Source of the DNA: a virus
Taxonomy: Duplodnaviria; Caudoviricetes
DNA: 54,415 nt
Virus record (IMG/VR): IMGVR_UViG_3300037153_000425
Span: 1-54,415 of that record
Direction: 5' to 3' (one strand)
Shown: positions 654 to 15,354 of the stretch, piece after piece
Layout of the letters: each line of letters begins with the position of its first letter
Position numbering within the stretch: position 1 is the first letter of the stretch
Notes under the pieces: generated by a model
Database searches by the model: none
Seen by the model: the letters and a program-made list of their open reading frames with translations, nothing else
Told to the model about the DNA's origin: nothing
Translations under genes and position numbers: made by a program

Positions 654-2672
654 ATGCCCGGCGCCCCCGACCGCGAGCTCCCGATTCCCGTCCGGCGCTT
701 CCAGGGCACCATGCTCGCCATGGATCCTGCCTTTGTGCCGCTCGGGTGGCTCGCGCGGTGCGAGAATTGGGTGCCGGATTTGACGCTTGTCTTGAGCAAG
801 CGCCGCGGGAGTGCGCCGTGGCAACGGTTGCCCCAACCCGGGCGGGTCGATCCGCTCTACTATTGCAGTGGCAGCGACGGCACGCGCTACCTCTACTGCG
901 TCGTCAACGATCAGCTTTACGTGTCGGTGAATGACGCGCCCATCGTGCCGGTCACCAACGGCGCCTTTGCCGCCGGCCCGGTTGAGGACCTCCGCTACGG
1001 GATCGCGGTCGTCGGCGATACGCTCTACGTCGGCAACGACGTCGACCCGATGAAGCAAGTGCCGCTCGGCGGCGATGCGGTCGACCTGGTGCCGCTGGCA
1101 CTCCTCGACGATACGGGCCAGGTGGCGACGGCGATTCCCGACGAGCTCGCGCGGGTGCTCGCCGGCACCTACAGCTATCGCTGGGCGACCTATCACGGGC
1201 CGACGCAACGGTGGACGAAGGTGGGGCCCGTGCGTACCGTGACCACGGCCGGGTCGGGGCGGCAACGGCTCGGGTTTCAGGCCCCCACGGTGGCGCTTGC
1301 GGCGGGCGAGCTCTACCACCTCTTCCTCGCCGGCGTCGACCAGGAGATCGAGGGCGCGCACGACCAGACCCCGGTCGGCCTCCCGGCATCGACCGGCGCT
1401 GACCAGTTTGCCTTGTGGGATGACCCCGCCGTGGAGTCGGCCACCGTACCGATTCCGTCGACGGTCGTCCGGCGCGGCGCGCACTTGATTGCGCACCGCG
1501 GGCGCCTCTGGGGGGCCGGCGGGCTCGACGAGACGGCGCGGCGCGTGTGGGCGACCAACGTCCTCGTGCCCGGCCTCGAGCAATCGCTCTTCGAGCAAGG
1601 GCTCTTTTTCCCGGCTGGGGCCGTGACGCCCGACTTGGGCGGCCCGGTGACGGCGCTCGCGGTCGCGACCTTGTCCTCGACGAATCGGAGCCCGACGTCC
1701 CCGCTCGCGCTCATGACCGAAACGAGCACGTGGCTCTATTTCGGCGACCCGGTCGATGATCCCGGCGCGACGCTTGTGCAAATCTCCGACGAGATTGGCT
1801 GCCCGGGCGACCGCACCGTGGCCTCGACGCCGCTCGGCATTCTCTTTTGCGGCAAGCGGAGCGTGTATCTCTTGACGCCGCAGCAAGCCGAGCCAAAAGA
1901 CGTCGGCTGGCCGATCGAGCCGGCGATCCGCGCAGTCCCGGTGCCCGAGCGGGCAAACTGCTGGGCGATCTATCACCGCGGCTTCTACAAGCTGGCCCTC
2001 GTGCCGGCGGGTGGTGTCACCCCGACCGAGGAATGGTGGCTCGACCTCCGCCACGGCCTCGGCGATCCGCCGAATTGGTGGGGACCGCATACGACGCCGG
2101 GCTACAGCGCCGCTGCGCGGGCGACGAATCATCCGGCCGAGGAGGACCGGGCGTGGGCGGCGCAAGACAGCTCGGTGGCCTTTTTCGTGCTCTTGGATCA
2201 AGCCGACCGCTACATGGATCCGGTCGGGCCGCGGACGGGCGGGCAGTGGAACGTGGCGCATTGGAACGGCGACGAGTGGGCGCAGGAGAGTGCGGTGCCG
2301 ATTGTCTCACGGATCATCACCGCGGACCTGGACGGCGGCGCCCCCTTGACGCCGAAGATTGCGAAGCGCGCACGCATCGTCGCCCACGTCTTCGAGACGA
2401 CGTCCCTCGGCATCACCGTCACGGCGGATCATAGTTACGGCGTCGCGGGCACGCTCCGCGTGCCGATTGCGCTCGGCGACGTGTGGGATACGGCCGACTG
2501 GGATACGGCCTCGTGGGCGATGCAGCAGTGGATCCTGAGCGAGTTCGAGTGTCCGGTCCCCGAGCCCCGCGGGCGGCTCTTTTCCGCCGTCTTGACGCAC
2601 GTCGACCCGAACCCGTGCGATCTCCGCGATTTCGAGCTCCGCGTGCAACCGTCCAGCCGCGAGACGCAGTAG
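654..2672 (+). CDS. Tail nozzle / tubular protein B-like (672 aa)
   Basis: Size, beta-propeller-like W/D-rich sequence, GC..R.V....G motif, position after adaptor. Confidence 0.7.
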   Translation: MPGAPDRELPIPVRRFQGTMLAMDPAFVPLGWLARCENWVPDLTLVLSKRRGSAPWQRLPQPGRVDPLYYCSGSDGTRYLYCVVNDQLYVSVNDAPIVPVTNGAFAAGPVEDLRYGIAVVGDTLYVGNDVDPMKQVPLGGDAVDLVPLALLDDTGQVATAIPDELARVLAGTYSYRWATYHGPTQRWTKVGPVRTVTTAGSGRQRLGFQAPTVALAAGELYHLFLAGVDQEIEGAHDQTPVGLPASTGADQFALWDDPAVESATVPIPSTVVRRGAHLIAHRGRLWGAGGLDETARRVWATNVLVPGLEQSLFEQGLFFPAGAVTPDLGGPVTALAVATLSSTNRSPTSPLALMTETSTWLYFGDPVDDPGATLVQISDEIGCPGDRTVASTPLGILFCGKRSVYLLTPQQAEPKDVGWPIEPAIRAVPVPERANCWAIYHRGFYKLALVPAGGVTPTEEWWLDLRHGLGDPPNWWGPHTTPGYSAAARATNHPAEEDRAWAAQDSSVAFFVLLDQADRYMDPVGPRTGGQWNVAHWNGDEWAQESAVPIVSRIITADLDGGAPLTPKIAKRARIVAHVFETTSLGITVTADHSYGVAGTLRVPIALGDVWDTADWDTASWAMQQWILSEFECPVPEPRGRLFSAVLTHVDPNPCDLRDFELRVQPSSRETQ

Positions 2673-2673
2673 C

Positions 2674-3705
2674 ATGGCGCAGATTCCCCGCCCGCCGAAA
2701 CAAGGGAACGTGATAACCTACGTCGCGAAGGTGGCGGCGGGCTATCCGCACATCCTGGCCGGCGAGGTCGATGCCGACCTGGATACGATCTACGGCGCGT
2801 GGAATAGCGGCGCCGATACCATCAACATTCGCGACGGGGCCGTCACGAGTGCCAAGCTGGCCGCCGATTCGGTCGGGCCGCGTGAGTTGCAGGATAGCGG
2901 CATCGGGACGACGAATCTCGCCGACGGGTCGGTCACGACGCCGAAACTGGCCGACCTGAACGTGACGACCGGCAAGCTCGCCGACGGCGCCGTGACGACG
3001 GCCAAGCTGCCGGATGGCACGGTGACGGACCCGAAGATCGTGAGTGTCGCGTGGGCGAAGGTGACGGGCGCCCCCACCACGCTACCGCCGAGTGGCCCGG
3101 CGGGCGGCGATCTCGCCGGCTCGAGCTATCCCAATCCCATCATTGCGTCGGGCGTCGTGACGGCGGCCAAGCTCGCCCCGGGGACGCTCACGGGCGCGAA
3201 CCTCTCGGCGGGCAGCATCGGCGCCCGCGAGATTGCCGACGGCAGTATCGGCGTCGCCGAGCTCGCCGATGCCGCCGTGTCGCGCGCGAAACTCGCGCCG
3301 GGCGTGCTCCCCGGCGCGTGGGTGTCCGTCCCGATCACCAACTTCACGACGAGCACCGTCGGCGGGTGGATCCGTGTTGCGACGCTCCCGGCACTGACGA
3401 CGCGCGGCGCGAATCCCGTCTTTCTCTTTGCCAATCACGGGCTCGGCGTCGCCGTCGGCGCGGGGCCCGGCAACGTGCTGCTGCGCTGGATCCGTGACGG
3501 CACGCACCTCTGCAACACCGCGTGGGGTGCGGGGGGCGGGACGAATCTCGTCGCGCCGTTGCCGTCGCTCCCGTGGATGGACGTCGTGCCGACCGCAGGG
3601 AGCTACGTCTACGCGCTCGAGGTGCAGCTCGGGCCCGGCGTGTCGACGGTGTATTTCGTCGCGACCAACACGGGCTGCGGCTTGACGGCGTTCGAGCTCG
3701 GATGA
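2674..3705 (+). CDS. Tail fibre-like protein 1
   Basis: DADLDTIY N-terminal anchor, repeated (D)G.VT..KLA motifs, variable C-terminus. Confidence 0.65.
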   Translation: MAQIPRPPKQGNVITYVAKVAAGYPHILAGEVDADLDTIYGAWNSGADTINIRDGAVTSAKLAADSVGPRELQDSGIGTTNLADGSVTTPKLADLNVTTGKLADGAVTTAKLPDGTVTDPKIVSVAWAKVTGAPTTLPPSGPAGGDLAGSSYPNPIIASGVVTAAKLAPGTLTGANLSAGSIGAREIADGSIGVAELADAAVSRAKLAPGVLPGAWVSVPITNFTTSTVGGWIRVATLPALTTRGANPVFLFANHGLGVAVGAGPGNVLLRWIRDGTHLCNTAWGAGGGTNLVAPLPSLPWMDVVPTAGSYVYALEVQLGPGVSTVYFVATNTGCGLTAFELG

Positions 3706-10975: not shown

Positions 10976-12142
10976 ATGCCCGATCAGGCGCTTTTCGCGT
11001 ATCGCGTGCAGCTCCCCGACGGGAGCGAGACGGTGCGGACGGGCGGGGCCGACCGGCCGCCGACGCATGGCGAACTCGCCGATTACGCCGCGAACCAGGG
11101 CGAGCGCTACCTCGGGCCGGTGGCGATGTCGCCCAACATTCCGACCGGGAGCCCGCCCCCCGAGGCGGCACCCACGCCATCGCCCGCCGCGCCCACCGTG
11201 CCACCACCGGCCCCGCCCGAGGCGGTGGCCTCGCCGAGCACGCTCTCGCATACGCTCTGGCCCGAGCGCTCGATCGCGAGCCAGGTGCCGAGCATCGTTG
11301 GGGGTGTTGGCGGGGGTATGCTCGCGGGGGCGGGGATGGGCGCGCTCGGCGGCCCCTTGGCCCCGATCACGGTGCCCGTCGGGGCGATTATCGGGGGCGC
11401 GCTCGGCTCGGGTGGCCTCGAGTATCTCACGGCGAAATCGGAGCAAGAAGCGGGCATCCCGCCGTCCGAGGAGGGCACGCCGGCCGAGCGGGCGGTGCGG
11501 GCCGGGGTGCGTGGTGGCGTCGGCGAGACGGGCAGCCAGCTCGTGCAAGGGGGCGCGCAGGCCGTCAAGGCGCTCGCGCGTCCGGTCCTCAGCGCGGTCG
11601 AGCAAGTTGCCCCGACGATCACGCGCGAGCTGCCCGCCGAGGCCACGGCCGTGACGACGAAGGTCGGGCAGTTGATTCGCGACCCGGGGGCGCTCGCCAC
11701 CGCCCCGCTCGGGCCGCAGGGCCAGCGCACCATGCTCCCGGCATGGTGGCAATACCACACCGCCAACGGGGCCGACGCGGTCGTCAAGGCGTGGGATGCG
11801 CTCACGCCGGTCGGCCAATTGAACCTCGCCGGCCCGCAGGTCGACGCCATGGGCCGCATCGTCGATGCGCTGCGCCCGAGCGGCATGGGCATCGGCAGCC
11901 TCGCCAAGAGCGCCGGCTTACCGGCGACCCTGTCGCACTACGGGGTGATTTCCTACCCGACGGCGGTAGGGCTCACTGCGGCAACCAGACTCGGGCAGGA
12001 GTACGCGCCGCGCGCCTTGCTGTATCCGACCGCGCTCGATTGGATGTCGCGGCTCCCGCCAATCTCGCGAGTGGCGAGCCCGTGGGCCAGCGCCGCGACG
12101 AGCACGGTCGGGCAGATCGGGGCGCGGGAAGCGCTGCCCTAG
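10976..12142 (+). CDS. Ejection protein with glycine-zipper membrane segment
   Basis: GGVGGGMLAGAGMG...GAIIGGALG; last gene of the late operon. Confidence 0.6.
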   Translation: MPDQALFAYRVQLPDGSETVRTGGADRPPTHGELADYAANQGERYLGPVAMSPNIPTGSPPPEAAPTPSPAAPTVPPPAPPEAVASPSTLSHTLWPERSIASQVPSIVGGVGGGMLAGAGMGALGGPLAPITVPVGAIIGGALGSGGLEYLTAKSEQEAGIPPSEEGTPAERAVRAGVRGGVGETGSQLVQGGAQAVKALARPVLSAVEQVAPTITRELPAEATAVTTKVGQLIRDPGALATAPLGPQGQRTMLPAWWQYHTANGADAVVKAWDALTPVGQLNLAGPQVDAMGRIVDALRPSGMGIGSLAKSAGLPATLSHYGVISYPTAVGLTAATRLGQEYAPRALLYPTALDWMSRLPPISRVASPWASAATSTVGQIGAREALP

Positions 12143-12234
12143 CGGAGACGTCGCGGGAGGAACACGGCGAGCACGCGCACGAGGACCGTCGCCAGGAACG
12201 AGATGCTTACGAACTCGATGATCCAGGCCGTCAT
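12139..12234 (-). CDS. 31-aa hydrophobic peptide (MTAWIIEFVSISFLATVLVRVLAVFLPRRLR)
   Basis: Translated by hand; single TM plus basic tail; positional counterpart at 49225-49323; promoter upstream. Confidence 0.55.
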   Translation of the reverse strand: MTAWIIEFVSISFLATVLVRVLAVFLPRRLR

Positions 12235-12244
12235 AGCGTTACAG

Positions 12245-12274
12245 ACGATACGTGTCATGCCCGCGTGTCGGCAA
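12245..12274 (-). promoter_or_regulatory. Sigma70-type promoter TTGCCG-N18-TATCGT
   Basis: Conserved in both variants, about 10 nt upstream of the peptide ATG. Confidence 0.5.
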
Positions 12275-12315
12275 GCCCCGCAGGGGCCTTAGCGGGCTTC
12301 CAGCCGCGCGGCTCG

Positions 12316-13596
12316 TCATCCTGCGCCATCACTCGCTCCGTCCACCGCGAGAATCGCGCGCCCGATCACCTCGACGACTTGCGGCACGACCGCGTTGCCC
12401 AGCGCCTTCAACTCGTCTCGCCAGCGGGCGCCAGCCAGTCGGGCGGATACCCCATGAGCTGCGCGGGTTTCCTGCCGCTGATATGCTGCCCACGCTTGCG
12501 TTGCGTCCAGTGCCACCCGTCGTGACACGGCTTGCAGAGCGTCTGCAGATTCTTGAGTGCTGTATTCTTCCGATCGTGGTCGACGTGATGCACCACGAGC
12601 TTGCGCCTTGAGCCACAGCTCTCGCAGGCGTCCTTCAGGGCGAGCGCTCGCGCACGCTTGCACAACGTCGTCTTGTTCGAGGAATCCACCCCGCGCGACG
12701 CAGCAGAGCACGTAAGCGAGCAGAACCGACGACGAGAGAAGCTGCCCCGATCTTCCAGCCGCCCGTTGAAACGACTGCGGGTCAACGTCGCGCCACAGGT
12801 CGAGCACGGCTTCGAGGGGCACGGCAGAGCATTGCGTCCCATCGCTCACCACCTGAGCCAGCCAGCTGGGTAGCCCATCAAGGTCTCCACCCACCGGGGA
12901 TTCAACCGTGCGCGGCGGCTCCCACTCGTGCGGACGACCACCCGGCCGAGCAGGCCATTGCTCGGCACGTTCGCATCGTGGCAGGCCCCGTCCTTCCAAT
13001 CGCGTTGGGTCGCGGTCGGCCATTCCAGCACCTCGGCCGCGAGAATCCGCCCGTGCCCTCGCGCCACGCTCGGTTGCGTCTTGCGCGTCCGCTGCTCGTT
13101 TTCCGAGCTGCGCGGCGTCGGCCACTCGCCCGACGATCCAGACGCGGTCGCGGCGGTGCGGGGCGCCGACGTGTCGAGCACCCACCACGAGCGGCCAGCA
13201 GGCGTAGCCCGCCGCCTCTAGGTCGCCGAGGACGCTATCCGCGCCGCGACGGCGCAAAGCAGGCACGTTCTCGACGAGCACCCAGCGTGGGCGGAGCTCG
13301 CGGATGATGCGGGCAAACTCGCGCCAGAGCCCGCTGCGCCATCCGGTGATGCCGACGCCTTTGCCCGCTGCCGAGATGTCCTGGCAGGGGAATCCGCCGG
13401 CGATGAGGTCGACGGGCTTGAGGGTGCCGGCGCCTGCGAATCGCACATCCCGGCGTCGGGCAACGTGGGGCCAGTGCCGGGCGAGCACGTTCTCACAGTA
13501 GGGCTCCCGCTCGACCTGCCAGCGCACCGTGAAGCCGGCGCGCTTGAGGCCGAGTGACATGCCCCCGATGCCGGCGAACAGGTCGCCGCATGTCAC
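12316..13596 (-). CDS. dcm: C5 cytosine DNA methyltransferase, alpha chain
   Basis: DLFAGIGG (I), GGFPCQD (IV), VENV (VI), HRRDRVWIV (VIII), LGNAV (X); GTG start overlaps the upstream TGA. Confidence 0.9.
   Translation of the reverse strand: MTCGDLFAGIGGMSLGLKRAGFTVRWQVEREPYCENVLARHWPHVARRRDVRFAGAGTLKPVDLIAGGFPCQDISAAGKGVGITGWRSGLWREFARIIRELRPRWVLVENVPALRRRGADSVLGDLEAAGYACWPLVVGARHVGAPHRRDRVWIVGRVADAAQLGKRAADAQDATERGARARADSRGRGAGMADRDPTRLEGRGLPRCERAEQWPARPGGRPHEWEPPRTVESPVGGDLDGLPSWLAQVVSDGTQCSAVPLEAVLDLWRDVDPQSFQRAAGRSGQLLSSSVLLAYVLCCVARGGFLEQDDVVQACASARPEGRLRELWLKAQARGASRRPRSEEYSTQESADALQAVSRRVALDATQAWAAYQRQETRAAHGVSARLAGARWRDELKALGNAVVPQVVEVIGRAILAVDGASDGAG
12408..12842 (-). CDS. HNH endonuclease nested inside dcm
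   Basis: CSTC, FCSLTC, CESCG...VHHVDHD..N...NLQTLCKPCH. Confidence 0.85.
   Translation of the reverse strand: MGRNALPCPSKPCSTCGATLTRSRFNGRLEDRGSFSRRRFCSLTCSAASRGVDSSNKTTLCKRARALALKDACESCGSRRKLVVHHVDHDRKNTALKNLQTLCKPCHDGWHWTQRKRGQHISGRKPAQLMGYPPDWLAPAGETS
12846..13448 (-). CDS. Overlapping alternative-frame methyltransferase beta chain (in-frame TAG at 13218-13220; may start at GTG 13181)
   Basis: WPTP/WPTA repeats and RLNPRWVETLMGYP motif-IX-like segment, which the alpha frame lacks. Confidence 0.65.
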
Positions 13597-13763
13597 GGCG
13601 CCGTCCCGTGCCGCGCTCGCCACGCGGCCACGCGACAGAGCGGCGAGCAATAGCGGGCGGTCGCCCGCACGGGTTTGAAGCGCACCCCACACCGGGCGCA
13701 CTGCTGTAACGCTATCGATGCCCGCCTACCCGTTACAGGGCCCGGGGTGGGCTTCCCGGTCAT
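13593..13763 (-). CDS. Small zinc-finger protein
   Basis: CARCG..F.P....ARYCS..CR; homologue at 50028-50228. Confidence 0.6.
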   Translation of the reverse strand: MTGKPTPGPVTGRRASIALQQCARCGVRFKPVRATARYCSPLCRVAAWRARHGTAP

Positions 13764-13990
13764 GCCGAGGTGCGCGCGGGCCGTGGTAGCGTTGCGAGGG
13801 CCCTTCTCGGGCCATCGTGGTGCGCGTCCGTGCCGCCGGTGCACCGCCGCAAGTGCACCTCGAGCGCGTCGCGCACCCAATCCTGCACCAGAACCTCCGT
13901 GGCGATGCACTCGAGTTTCAGCGCGCGGTGCACCCGTTTCGGGATGCGGGTCGCGAGCTGGACGCTATCCGCCGGAATGTCGTTCGCCAT
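13760..13990 (-). CDS. Ribbon-helix-helix DNA-binding protein
   Basis: VQLATRIP..VHRALK......V...V.DAL pattern. Confidence 0.7.
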   Translation of the reverse strand: MANDIPADSVQLATRIPKRVHRALKLECIATEVLVQDWVRDALEVHLRRCTGGTDAHHDGPRRALATLPRPARTSA

Positions 13991-14495
13991 CGGTGGCTCC
14001 TCCGGAATGGGTCGCCGCGAGATAGGCGGCGAGCAGCAGGGCCTCGGCGGGGCCCTCGTCGGCGGCTTGGATGACGCCGAGACTCGGGAACCGTTCTTGC
14101 GCGCGCAGCCGGCTGACGCGCTTGGCGGCGCCCAGCAGCCCGGCGTGCCGCTTCCAGACGGTCGGCTGGATGACGCGGTAGGGGACGCGAGCGGCGACGA
14201 TGAGCCCGAGCCACAAGCCGAAGCCGACGCCGGTACGGTAGCTCGAGGCGACCCCTTGCTGGGGCCGGGCGCCTTGCGCCTCGAGGGCGACCTCGACGCC
14301 CCGGCCGTTGATGGCCCGGGTCAAGAGCGCCCACATGGCCGCCGGGTCGTAGTCGTCGCGCATGCGGCGGTTCCGCAGCACGATCAAGCGGGGCGTGCGG
14401 CGCAGCGCCGCGGCGACGACCGCGCCGGCGTCGTCGAGGTCGAGGACGCCGAGGCCGCCGGTGACGCCCGGGTCGCACCCGATCACGCGCCTCAT
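13965..14495 (-). CDS. RuvC-like Holliday junction resolvase
   Basis: VIGCDPG.TG, LEAQ, P.VWK, AEALLLA. Confidence 0.85.
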   Translation of the reverse strand: MRRVIGCDPGVTGGLGVLDLDDAGAVVAAALRRTPRLIVLRNRRMRDDYDPAAMWALLTRAINGRGVEVALEAQGARPQQGVASSYRTGVGFGLWLGLIVAARVPYRVIQPTVWKRHAGLLGAAKRVSRLRAQERFPSLGVIQAADEGPAEALLLAAYLAATHSGGATDGERHSGG

Positions 14496-15046
14496 GGCGT
14501 CTGCTCCCCGGCGTCGAGGGCGGCGAGCGCATCAACCAACGCCTGTTCCCAATCCTGATATGGCGGATCGGGGAAGTTTTCCCGCATCTCCCGCGCCGCC
14601 TCCACCACGCGCTCCCGCGCCTGCTCGCGGGCGAGGAGCGCGGCCAGGTCGGGGGCGTTAAGTAATTCGTCGGCGGACTTTGTGACGAGGGTATCTTGTC
14701 CACCCCATGCTCGAAGCGTCGTGCAGGTGGACCGCAGTTCCTTCACCAGCGCCGCGACGTGGGCGCGGAGTTGGTTGAGCCGCGTCGCGCCTTCCCCGAG
14801 GATTCTCCGCTCCGCAGAGGCGGCGTCATGCAGTTCTTCCCCGAGATGCCTGTTCATGTCCGTGAGCCGCGTGTTCTCGGCGCGGAGTTGGTCGCGTTCG
14901 TAGCCAATCGACGCGATACGCTGCTGATCAATACGACCAAGAGAACGGCGCGTTTCCACGTCCTGCGTGAGCCGCGCGTTCTCTTGATTCAGGCGGTCGA
15001 CGCAAGCGCAGCATGCGTGCTCTTGTGGCATGGGGTGCATAGCCAT
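14492..15046 (-). CDS. Coiled-coil hypothetical protein
   Basis: GGAGG RBS; shares LRAHVAALVK, APDLAALLAREQARER and ALDAGEQTP with 50957-51352. Confidence 0.6.
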   Translation of the reverse strand: MAMHPMPQEHACCACVDRLNQENARLTQDVETRRSLGRIDQQRIASIGYERDQLRAENTRLTDMNRHLGEELHDAASAERRILGEGATRLNQLRAHVAALVKELRSTCTTLRAWGGQDTLVTKSADELLNAPDLAALLAREQARERVVEAAREMRENFPDPPYQDWEQALVDALAALDAGEQTP

Positions 15047-15354
15047 AGGACCTCCAGCGGTCGGGCGTAATCTTCGTGGTGCGCGTGCAGGCGAGCTCCG
15101 ATGCCACACCGTTGGCAGGTGGTCGGCGCCACGATGCGCCCGCTGCGACGCGCCTTGTAGAGTTGGCGATGCGCTCGCCGTGCTCCGGGTGTTCGATCGT
15201 ACCAATCCTTCACGCCCGACCGCATTTTCTCCATCCGGCGTCGGTTTCTAATGCGTGCCTGTTCGCGAACGCGCTCGCGATTCTTCTCGCGCCACGCCGC
15301 AGCGATCGCTCGGCGATGGATGCGCGCGGCCTCAGTTGTGGGCTTACTCGCCAT
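14989..15354 (-). CDS. HNH-type endonuclease, variant-1 specific
   Basis: CQRCG...HAHHEDYARPLEVLWLC..CH. Confidence 0.75.
   Translation of the reverse strand: MASKPTTEAARIHRRAIAAAWREKNRERVREQARIRNRRRMEKMRSGVKDWYDRTPGARRAHRQLYKARRSGRIVAPTTCQRCGIGARLHAHHEDYARPLEVLWLCTPCHKSTHAALASTA

What the first reader, a model, noticed from the sequence alone, without database searches (positions are those of the whole stretch)
12316..13596. HNH endonuclease overprinted inside a two-frame C5 methyltransferase with the host frame kept open
Seen: the alpha frame has motifs I-VIII and X; a second frame carries the motif-IX-like LNPRWVETLMGYPAGWL. In that second frame an HNH gene (12408-12842) starts 3 nt after the beta stop and ends in a second copy, LMGYPPDWL. 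The duplicated Met codons (12878, 12455) are 423 bp apart, exactly 141 codons, and the alpha frame reads through the whole insert without a stop to reach LKALGNAVVP. Known: M.EcoHK31I encodes motif IX in an alternative frame. Inference: a homing nuclease inserted with a recoded target duplication that restores beta, while alpha tolerates a 141-aa insert encoded by the HNH's other frame, with no intron or intein evident.
Basis: partly seen in the sequence, partly recalled or inferred. Interest (0 to 1): 0.8.

Follow-up and report, generated by a model that had tools for sequence, protein, structure and literature searches.

The report
Hidden HNH gene inside two-frame methylase
A selfish DNA-cutting (HNH) gene sits in a shifted reading frame inside this soil phage's cytosine-methylase gene, and the methylase frame stays free of stop codons, so it is probably read straight through; the layout is real, but the principle was published in 2025.

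Summary
On the minus strand, a C5-methyltransferase frame (alpha, 12316-13596) carries motifs I-VIII and X. A +1 frame (beta, 12846-13181) carries WPTP modules and motif IX. An HNH gene (12408-12842) follows beta in the same frame.

Alignment to an insert-free relative defines a 423-bp insert (12466-12888) in phase with alpha. Contigs from three soil runs join exactly 12465 to 12889.

Alpha has 0 stops across the HNH, against 5.6 expected (0 of 2000 synonymous shuffles stop-free). All 11 other in-gene alleles examined are also stop-free, at GC 0.35-0.69. Three free-standing HNH relatives show no avoidance.

No Rfam family matches, and Pfam finds nothing but the methylase N-half in alpha. The two-frame layout is family-wide: motif IX lies in frame +1 in 114 of 147 loci and in frame 0 in 2.

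The principle, however, is in print as the ShiLan domain (Arsenault, Gosselin and Gogarten 2025), and this scan has noted it on other DNA, once in a two-frame host.

New here: a different HNH lineage and frame offset, a two-frame host, and a carried replacement tail for beta. Expression, methylation and cleavage are untested.

The parts
12316..13596 (-). Alpha frame of the C5-methyltransferase (426 codons plus stop), with motifs I-VIII, a junk-like linker, the 141-codon read-through of the insert, and motif X
   Evidence: ORF. The start was chosen by comparison with relatives. Pfam finds the DNA_methylase N-half. PHROG 363 DNA methyltransferase matches residues 1-420.
13117..13596 (-). Catalytic N-terminal half of alpha (motifs I, IV, VI, VIII)
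   Evidence: Pfam PF00145, E 1.4e-40. Model pLDDT is mostly 83-95 over residues 1-160.
12846..13181 (-). Beta ORF in the +1 frame (111 codons): WPTP modules plus motif IX, with stop TGA at 12846-12848
   Evidence: The tail matches PHROG 1008 DNA methyltransferase. The beta frame is open only from 13217, and GTG 13181 is the only start candidate.
12466..12888 (-). The 423-bp insertion element, in phase with alpha codons
   Evidence: DNA alignment to insert-free L001. Phase and stop-free reading. Contigs of three soil runs join 12465 to 12889.
12846..12888 (-). Replacement tail for beta carried by the insert (ETLMGYPAGWLRW plus stop)
   Evidence: These residues (beta 100-111) lie in the predicted alpha-beta interface.
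12849..12854 (-). AGGTGG, a Shine-Dalgarno-like motif 6 nt upstream of the HNH ATG
   Evidence: Upstream context printed. Function is inferred.
12408..12842 (-). HNH endonuclease ORF (144 codons plus stop) in beta's frame, +1 relative to alpha
   Evidence: Pfam HNH, 24.9 bits. PHROG HNH families, best E 1e-11. Relatives sit in the same place in other methylase genes.
12408..12465 (-). Displaced native tail of beta (AQLMGYPPDWLAPAGETS plus stop), now the C-terminus of the HNH ORF. In the alpha frame it reads RAAHGVSARLAGARWRDEL, leading into motif X
   Evidence: Comparison with L001.
12382..12402 (-). Motif X (LGNAVVP) in the alpha frame
   Evidence: Invariant L399, G400, N401 and P405 in alignment A2. 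The C-terminal helix has pLDDT 89-94.

Best explanation
The window holds a phage cytosine-5 DNA methyltransferase gene that is read in two frames.

- Alpha gives the catalytic body: motifs I-VIII, a long unstructured linker, and motif X.
- Beta, in the +1 frame, gives the WPTP-type recognition modules and motif IX.

A 423-bp homing-type element inserted inside the motif-IX codons, between beta's ...NPRWV and ...AQLMGYPPDWL. The element carries three things:
- a recoded copy of beta's last residues with a stop codon, so beta stays whole;
- a Shine-Dalgarno-like AGGTGG and an ATG;
- an HNH endonuclease gene in beta's frame, which runs into and ends in beta's displaced native tail.

Because motif X of alpha lies downstream, alpha can be completed only by translating through the element. 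The element's length is a multiple of three, and its codons create no stop in the alpha frame. Alpha is therefore most likely made with a 141-residue, poorly structured loop and then joins beta.

The HNH protein, made by internal initiation, would cut insert-free alleles and spread the element.

Shown here: the anatomy, the exact insert boundaries, the stop avoidance and its recurrence, and the patchy distribution. Inferred: translation of all three products, the alpha-beta pairing, methylase activity and homing.
For: Insert boundaries and phase.

Insert-free form in nature:
- L001.
- One contig in each of 3 soil runs (3 coded studies) joins 12465 to 12889, while other contigs in the same runs span the insert with 0-1 differences.

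Stop avoidance in the window: 0 observed against 5.61 expected, with 0 of 2000 shuffles stop-free.

Stop avoidance in other alleles:
- 0 alpha-frame stops in all 8 other in-gene alleles of the same HNH family. Expected values were 0.78-6.9, and P(0) was 0.0105 or less in 7 of the 8. L086 is not significant (P(0) = 0.42).
- 0 stops in Staphylococcus phage CUB-EPI_14 (HNH ORF GC 0.35; expected 11.1; 0 of 2000 stop-free).
- In Komagataeibacter phage phiKX1 the only stop counted (expected 6.3) is read as alpha's own terminator downstream of motif X.
- 0 stops in L073, which carries a different HNH (expected 2.2, P(0) = 0.07).

Controls:
- The HNH's other alternative frame holds 2-11 stops, near expectation.
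- Three free-standing relatives have 17, 12 and 15 stops in the corresponding frame, against 18.1, 11.5 and 12.8 expected.
- L088, where the HNH lies after the methylase stop, has 4 against 3.6 expected.

Unbiased sample: of the 9 loci found with the HNH alone, 6 are in-gene and all 6 are open, 2 lie after the gene, and 1 is unrelated.

Patchy distribution:
- Of the 37 close homologues read, only the window's own protein has the insert.
- On a tree of 166 host N-terminal halves (three rows with other HNH layouts left uncounted), the 7 insert-bearing rows need at least 6 changes of state.

No splicing signature: 0 Rfam matches at E up to 1, and Pfam finds no family but the methylase N-half in alpha.

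Structure model of alpha: the N-terminal half and the motif-X helix are confident, while insert residues 237-377 have block means of 34-75.

Alpha-beta complex model: score 0.85 against a best control of 0.02. That mark was reached by 58 of 80 solved complexes and 2 of 110 mismatched pairs. The runs agree in at least 66% of contacts, and the partner's pLDDT is at least 53. Beta residues 90-111 touch alpha's motif X, motif I and motif VIII regions.

Shine-Dalgarno-like motifs lie before the HNH ATG in the window, L086, L087, L065 and L170.
Against: - Nothing here shows that any of the three products is made. No RNA run holding the stretch was listed, so expression could not be looked at.
- The complex pass may only reflect likeness to solved single-chain C5 methyltransferases, in which motifs IX, X and I pack together.
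- Beta's only start candidate in this clade is a GTG whose GGTGG lies directly against it, which is poor spacing. The ATG that most of the family has 14-15 codons upstream of motif VIII is missing here.
- In the window alone, alpha's openness over the beta overlap is not significant (expected 1.34 stops, P(0) = 0.18). That part rests on the family.
- Stop avoidance is a property of the whole element lineage. It does not prove that this particular methylase is still active.
- L084, where the HNH lies after the gene, also has 0 stops (P(0) = 0.02), so one control is not clean.
- The tree is a FastTree of 161 columns with weak support.
Confidence: 0.8

Rival explanations
1. The alpha frame is open across the insert only by chance, as off-frames often are in G+C-rich DNA.
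For: The region has GC 0.63-0.73, and one search lists many long overlapping ORFs in this window. One allele is compatible with chance (L086, GC 0.67, P(0) = 0.42).
Against: In the window, 0 of 2000 synonymous shuffles are stop-free. The same openness holds at GC 0.35 in a Staphylococcus phage (11.1 stops expected) and in all 12 in-gene alleles. Free-standing relatives carry 12-17 stops in that frame.
Confidence: 0.02
2. The insert is removed, as an unrecognised intron, an intein-like element or a translational bypass, so alpha never contains the 141 residues.
For: No experiment excludes it. The ShiLan authors also keep RNA and protein splicing as something to test (PMC11855218, section 4.4).
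Against: There is no Rfam family at E up to 1 on either strand of 12000-14000. The HNH ORF fills nearly the whole insert, leaving no room for a ribozyme core. Pfam finds no family but the methylase N-half in alpha. If the insert were removed, there would be no reason for stop avoidance in the host frame.
Confidence: 0.05
3. The methylase in this phage is already disabled by the insert. The stop-free frame is only inherited from the element's past in other hosts.
For: The insert is rare in this clade (1 of 37 close homologues). Contigs in two soil runs skip 12342-13714, so relatives lack the whole gene and it appears dispensable. Beta's start signal is weak.
Against: Alpha, beta and the HNH ORF are all intact. 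The invariant residues of the family are kept. The carried tail keeps the LMGYP.GW core of motif IX and lies in the predicted interface.
Confidence: 0.1
4. The host enzyme is one chain made by two ribosomal frameshifts (+1 after motif VIII, -1 after motif IX), not two subunits. In that case the insert's tail copy and stop would truncate that chain.
For: The gene order I-VIII, recognition modules, IX, X is the canonical one, with only the middle shifted. The Cluster O mycobacteriophage paper leaves frameshift, hop or two products open for a like arrangement (PMC4351075, passage). No good start signal for beta exists in this clade.
Against: Alpha is kept open over the whole shifted part: 0 stops in 89 loci tested, against a median of 2.44 expected per locus. 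A frameshifted chain would not need this. M.EcoHK31I is shown to work as two chains (PMC2836561). Most relatives have a conserved ATG in the beta frame. No slippery site was looked for.
Confidence: 0.12

Closest known systems
ShiLan domain: hidden out-of-frame HNH endonuclease in mycobacteriophage ShiLan gp65 DNA methylase (Arsenault, Gosselin and Gogarten, Genes 2025, PMC11855218; abstract, sections 1, 3.5-3.6 and 4 read, plus passages of 3.3). An earlier paper (PMC9957025) was seen only in the search listing.
   Same: Both are in-phase insertions at conserved residues of a phage DNA methylase gene. In both, the host frame has no stop codon, the HNH gene lies in another frame, no intron or intein signature is found, the read-through peptide is poorly structured, and the distribution among close relatives is patchy.
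   Different: - Frame offset. [quoted passage not shown]
- Size. 195 residues there, 144 here.
- Start signal. The paper reports a GTG start without a ribosome-binding site and proposes leaderless initiation. Here an ATG follows AGGTGG.
- Sequence. No mycobacteriophage record matched two HNHs of this lineage (E limits 1e-8 and 1e-5), although 429 Mycobacterium phage records are in that collection. The ShiLan record itself was not fetched.
- Host. The host gene here is two-frame, and the element carries a replacement tail for the second frame.
- Statistics. In the parts read, the paper gives no stop-avoidance statistics.
Pacc40 gp60 insertion (same paper, section 3.6)
   Same: A second, unrelated out-of-frame nuclease-like ORF inside a different methylase, with free-standing relatives next to methylase genes in other phages. 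L084 and L088 here are comparable.
   Different: The host protein is different (helicase plus methylase), and the authors are less sure that the ORF is an HNH. No sequence comparison was made here.
M.EcoHK31I, the alpha/beta C5 methyltransferase of E. coli (as described in PMC2836561, passages read)
   Same: Alpha holds motifs I-VIII and X. Beta, encoded in another frame inside alpha, holds motif IX. Both chains are needed.
   Different: In M.EcoHK31I the recognition domain is said to lie in alpha. Here the WPTP modules, which look like the recognition part, lie in the beta frame, and alpha's middle is a variable, junk-like linker. No sequence comparison with M.EcoHK31I was made, and it carries no nuclease insert.
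Overlapping methylase gene segments of Cluster O mycobacteriophages (Corndog gp6/gp7; PMC4351075, passage read)
   Same: The catalytic half and the C-terminal helices of a cytosine methylase lie in overlapping frames. The authors could not tell two products from a frameshift, and their RT-PCR showed no splicing.
   Different: The genes are annotated there as two adjacent genes, and no nuclease is inside. Their loci were not compared here.
Free-standing homing endonuclease genes that bring a substitute 3' end for the gene they invade
   Same: The element carries a copy of the end of the target gene, and its own ORF runs into the displaced native end. L088 and L084 here do this at motif X.
   Different: In those cases the host gene ends before the nuclease gene. 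Here a second host frame (alpha) must still be read through the whole element.

Membership tests
Hidden out-of-frame HNH insertion elements in phage DNA methylases (ShiLan-domain kind) | Discrete insertion inside a phage DNA methylase ORF, in phase with the host codons | tested here: met
   423 nt relative to L001, starting on a codon boundary. Exact-joint contigs occur in 3 runs.
Hidden out-of-frame HNH insertion elements in phage DNA methylases (ShiLan-domain kind) | No stop codon in the host frame across the insert | tested here: met
   0 stops against 5.61 expected, with 0 of 2000 shuffles stop-free.
Hidden out-of-frame HNH insertion elements in phage DNA methylases (ShiLan-domain kind) | Another frame of the insert encodes an HNH endonuclease | tested here: met
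   Pfam PF01844, 24.9 bits against a cut-off of 21.4. PHROG 1271 HNH endonuclease, E 1e-11.
Hidden out-of-frame HNH insertion elements in phage DNA methylases (ShiLan-domain kind) | No intron or intein signature | tested here: met
   0 Rfam matches at E up to 1. Pfam finds no family but the methylase N-half in alpha at E up to 0.1. Splicing itself is not testable here.
Hidden out-of-frame HNH insertion elements in phage DNA methylases (ShiLan-domain kind) | Patchy presence among close relatives | tested here: met
   1 of 37 close homologues has it. At least 6 changes are needed for 7 carriers on the host tree. Insert-free relatives occur in the same soil runs.
Hidden out-of-frame HNH insertion elements in phage DNA methylases (ShiLan-domain kind) | Homology to the ShiLan element itself (same HNH, same frame offset) | tested here: not met
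   The frame offset differs: third frame in the paper, second frame here. No mycobacteriophage hit appeared for two HNHs of this lineage. The ShiLan record was not fetched, so the sequence part of this test is indirect.
M.EcoHK31I-type two-chain C5 methyltransferase | Alpha frame with motifs I-VIII and X; motif IX missing from it | tested here: met
   Pfam covers profile positions 2-164 of 324 only. LGNAVVP lies at alpha residues 399-405.
M.EcoHK31I-type two-chain C5 methyltransferase | Motif IX encoded in another frame inside alpha | tested here: met
   The beta tail matches a methyltransferase PHROG. Family-wide, motif IX lies in frame +1 in 114 of 147 loci, in frame 0 in 2, and in frame +2 in 0.
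M.EcoHK31I-type two-chain C5 methyltransferase | Two separate polypeptides that associate and are both needed for activity | not testable with these tools
   Only a model is available: complex score 0.85 against a best control of 0.02. That mark was reached by 58 of 80 solved complexes and 2 of 110 mismatched pairs. The pass may come from likeness to single-chain enzymes.
M.EcoHK31I-type two-chain C5 methyltransferase | Recognition domain carried by alpha (as stated for M.EcoHK31I in PMC2836561) | tested here: not met
   The WPTP modules lie in the beta frame. Alpha's middle is variable in length and of low model confidence. That the modules are the recognition part is inferred.
HNH endonuclease (Pfam PF01844) | Score above the curated cut-off, with the His, Asn, His and paired-Cys pattern | tested here: met
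   24.9 bits against 21.4. HHVDHD...N...CKPCH and CESCG are present in the translation. Activity was not tested. No PDB chain matches by sequence at E up to 0.01.
Group I/II intron or intein | Ribozyme core or protein-splicing blocks | tested here: not met

The most novel reading that the evidence does not exclude
This HNH lineage may be a specialised class of "frame-transparent" homing elements, a third way beside introns and inteins to live inside a gene. Its members would have evolved a stop-free alternative frame as a heritable trait. They sit in methylase genes of phages of staphylococci, acetic-acid bacteria, actinobacteria and uncultured soil hosts.

In two-frame methylases the element does more than sit there. 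By duplicating the doubly coded motif-IX segment it uncouples the two host frames: the upstream copy keeps only the beta reading, and the downstream copy keeps the alpha reading (seen in L073, L103, L085 and L065). That would be a natural route for resolving overlapping genes.

The read-through peptide might itself have gained a role.
Probability: 0.3. Interest if true: 0.65.

Novelty: new variant of a known kind. Interest (0 to 1): 0.45.

Why it matters
One DNA stretch here serves three products: alpha, beta's tail and the HNH protein.

It is quantitative evidence, with natural controls, that selection keeps a host frame readable through a selfish gene. The 2025 paper noted that property but, in the parts read, did not test it statistically.

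It extends the published mycobacteriophage case to an unrelated HNH lineage and to phages of very different hosts. Two of these hosts have cultured phages that could serve for experiments: Staphylococcus phage CUB-EPI_14 and Komagataeibacter phage phiKX1/phiKX2.

It also bears on annotation. Gene callers report one long "methylase" and miss both the HNH gene and the beta gene.

Tried and rejected
- **Introns.** An Rfam scan of 12000-14000 at E up to 1 gave no match.
- **Solved structures.** A PDB sequence search with the HNH gave no match at E up to 0.01.
- **Beta in Pfam.** Pfam on beta gave no family.
- **Beta against cultured phages.** tblastn found only 2 records.
- **Expression.** No RNA holder was listed.
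- **Homing site and double coding.** I tested whether the homing site is chosen because double coding makes it the most constrained DNA. This is not supported. Third-codon-position information is 0.87 bits in the motif-IX segment, against 0.78 (motif IV), 1.04 (motif VI) and 0.40 (motif X).
- **Beta's start.** The family's conserved ATG is absent in this clade. Only GTG 13181 is available, with a poorly spaced GGTGG, so the question stays unresolved.
- **Direct comparison with ShiLan gp65.** Not done; the record was not fetched.
- **My first view that the layout was unpublished.** I held this until. Earlier notes of this scan then pointed to the ShiLan paper, which I read. My literature search had not surfaced it, and one search found nothing.
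- **Failed scripts.** timed out. One search stopped on a script error after its first row. Both were rerun.
- **Incomplete survey.** 591 and 593 relatives were found in the two collections, but only 80 of each were kept. The survey of alleles is therefore a sample.
- **Supplements.** Supplementary files of the papers were not opened. The ShiLan paper's tables of database hits may list relatives of this lineage that I could not see.
Full report
**What is there.** The gene lies on the minus strand. One frame (alpha, 12316-13596, taking GTG 13596 as the start, as in relatives) reads motif I (FAGIGG), IV (GGFPCQ), VI (ENV) and VIII (PHRRDR), and, 240 codons further on, motif X (LGNAVVP). Pfam matches only the first half of its C5-methylase profile (positions 2-164 of 324).

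The +1 frame holds a 111-codon ORF (beta, 12846-13181) with two WPTP/WPTA modules. It ends in RLNPRWVETLMGYPAGWLRW. A PHROG methyltransferase family matches exactly that tail (E 2.3e-8).

One codon after beta's stop, in the same frame, a 144-codon ORF begins (12408-12842). It passes Pfam's HNH cut-off and matches eleven PHROG families, ten of them HNH endonucleases. It ends in QLMGYPPDWLAPAGETS. The neighbours are phage genes, including a Holliday-junction resolvase, another endonuclease and a protein with an endolysin domain.

**The insert.** The closest relative with DNA in hand, L001 (89% identical N-terminal half), has one uninterrupted beta ending ...RLNPRWVAQLMGYPPDWLAPGGGRS. DNA alignment shows that the window has 423 extra bases, 12466-12888, between TGGGT and CGCGCAGCTC. 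The insert begins on an alpha codon boundary and adds 141 residues to alpha without a stop.

The insert therefore brought a new end for beta (ETLMGYPAGWLRW plus stop), an AGGTGG 6 nt before an ATG, and the HNH gene. The HNH gene now terminates in beta's old tail.

In contigs of three soil metagenome runs from three coded studies, one contig each joins 12465 directly to 12889, while other contigs of the same runs cover the insert with 0-1 differences. The joined contigs differ from the window by about 11-14%, so they come from relatives, not from the same strain. They also lack 12925-13116.

**Is alpha open by chance? No.** Shuffling synonymous codons within the HNH ORF gives a mean of 5.61 alpha-frame stops, and 0 of 2000 shuffles were stop-free. 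The other alternative frame has 2 stops against 2.7 expected.

Searching viral contigs with the HNH protein alone gave 9 loci:
- In 6 the HNH lies inside a methylase gene, in the frame +1 to it, and the methylase frame runs through it to motif X.
- In 2 it lies just after the methylase stop.
- 1 is unrelated.

Three more in-gene cases turned up among 160 loci found with the methylase N-terminal half (L065, L073, L103). Two more are in cultured phages (Staphylococcus phage CUB-EPI_14 and Komagataeibacter phage phiKX1).

All 12 in-gene alleles, the window included, have no host-frame stop inside the nuclease gene. This covers HNH ORFs with GC from 0.35 to 0.69. In phiKX1 the one stop counted within the span I delimited as the HNH ORF is read as alpha's own terminator after motif X. 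Expected numbers were 0.8-11.1. Two alleles (L086, L073) are individually compatible with chance.

Three free-standing relatives (Vibrio phage nt-1 ORF189, Streptomyces phage Muntaha gp79 and a Vibrio phage ORF) have 17, 12 and 15 stops in that frame, as expected. L088, with the HNH after the gene, has 4 against 3.6 expected. L084, also after the gene, has 0 (P(0) = 0.02), which is an imperfect control.

**The host gene is two-frame throughout its family.** Of 160 loci, 147 contain the alpha stop. Of those 147:
- 141 have motif X in the alpha frame;
- a motif-IX pattern lies in frame +1 in 114, in frame 0 in 2 (L162, L167) and in frame +2 in none.

In 89 loci tested, alpha has 0 stops over the beta overlap, against a median of 2.44 expected per locus. 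For the window alone that test is weak (1.34 expected, P(0) = 0.18).

The literature describes this layout for M.EcoHK31I, with alpha holding I-VIII, X and the recognition domain, and beta holding IX in another frame (PMC2836561, passages). An unresolved arrangement of the same sort was noted in Cluster O mycobacteriophages (PMC4351075, passage).

A complex model of the window's alpha and beta scored 0.85, against a best control of 0.02. That mark was reached by 58 of 80 solved complexes and 2 of 110 mismatched pairs. The runs agree in at least 66% of contacts, and the partner's pLDDT is at least 53. The new beta tail packs against motifs X, I and VIII. This may simply echo solved single-chain enzymes.

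A model of alpha alone is confident for the catalytic half and the motif-X helix and poor for the linker and insert.

**No sign of splicing.** No Rfam family matches. Pfam finds no family but the methylase N-half in alpha. The HNH ORF fills almost the whole insert.

**Mobility.** Only 1 of 37 close homologues read carries the insert, and that is the window's own protein. On a FastTree of 166 host N-terminal halves, the 7 carriers of this HNH family need at least 6 gains or losses. The nearest relatives of L065 and L081, at 83% identity, are insert-free.

The read-through peptide finds 35 cluster representatives at E up to 0.001 among 1.84 billion proteins. All 10 long ones tested have the methylase N-terminal half.

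**Known or new.** I first took the layout for unpublished. Earlier notes of this scan named the ShiLan domain, and I read the paper (PMC11855218). It describes an in-phase insert in mycobacteriophage methylases with no host-frame stops, a hidden HNH in another frame, no intron or intein, a patchy distribution and a looping read-through peptide. The principle is therefore in print.

This scan has also met it on other DNA, once in a two-frame host (e1-5819905), and has met the two-frame methylase family itself several times.

What differs here:
- the HNH lineage, which gave no mycobacteriophage hit;
- the frame offset;
- a visible ribosome-binding motif;
- the two-frame host;
- the carried replacement tail for beta.

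In older alleles the downstream copy has lost the beta reading while keeping the alpha reading.

One idea was not borne out: that the homing site is favoured because double coding constrains it most.

**Verdict.** This is a new variant of a recently published kind. All expression and activity claims remain inferred.

Noticed in passing
window 12342-13714: Contigs in two soil runs (X3, X4) join 12341 to 13715, skipping 1373 nt. Some relatives seem to lack the whole methylase-HNH gene, which would make it dispensable. The side of the joint is only 35 letters.
   Followed up: no
window 12925-13116: The insert-free relative in three runs also lacks these 192 nt (64 codons) of the beta/linker region. 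This fits the variable number of WPTP modules seen across the family.
   Followed up: partly
window 14989-15354 (-): A second, free-standing endonuclease gene with an HNH-like CxxC...HH...CxxCH pattern (PHROG 2340 endonuclease, E 5e-21) lies 1.3 kb from the methylase.
   Followed up: no
L170 (Staphylococcus phage CUB-EPI_14, ON325435.2) 1342-3147: The annotated 601-residue DNA-cytosine methyltransferase gp45 is a canonical single-frame enzyme. A 160-codon HNH ORF (2501-2980) is hidden in its +1 frame, between the recognition region and motif IX. The record does not annotate the HNH.
   Followed up: partly
L171 (Komagataeibacter phage phiKX1, LC644975.1) about 1300-3100: The beta ORF is annotated as hypothetical protein PhiKX1_290. 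The catalytic alpha frame and the HNH gene are not annotated at all, and a minus-strand ORF is annotated over alpha's N-terminal half.
   Followed up: partly
L088 and L084: Relatives of the same HNH sit just after the methylase stop. In L088 the HNH ORF ends in a second copy of the motif-X tail. In L084 a second copy of the tail follows the HNH. This is the same trick of carrying a spare end, at another site.
   Followed up: partly
L162, L167, L086, L088: In these loci motif IX lies in the alpha frame, while the LPTP-type modules are still in the +1 frame. The point of return to the alpha frame therefore differs within the family. The first two have GC of only 0.36-0.37 and still keep both frames open.
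   Followed up: partly
loci L001-L169, 14-15 codons upstream of motif VIII: Most relatives have an ATG (often ATGATG) in the beta frame, created by a TAT-G at alpha's GY(D/E), even in G+C-rich loci. It is a candidate conserved start for beta. The window's clade uses TAC and lacks it.
   Followed up: partly
P0055: One distant homologue has an HNH-like segment fused in frame to the N-terminus of the methylase, which is another association of the two gene kinds.
   Followed up: no
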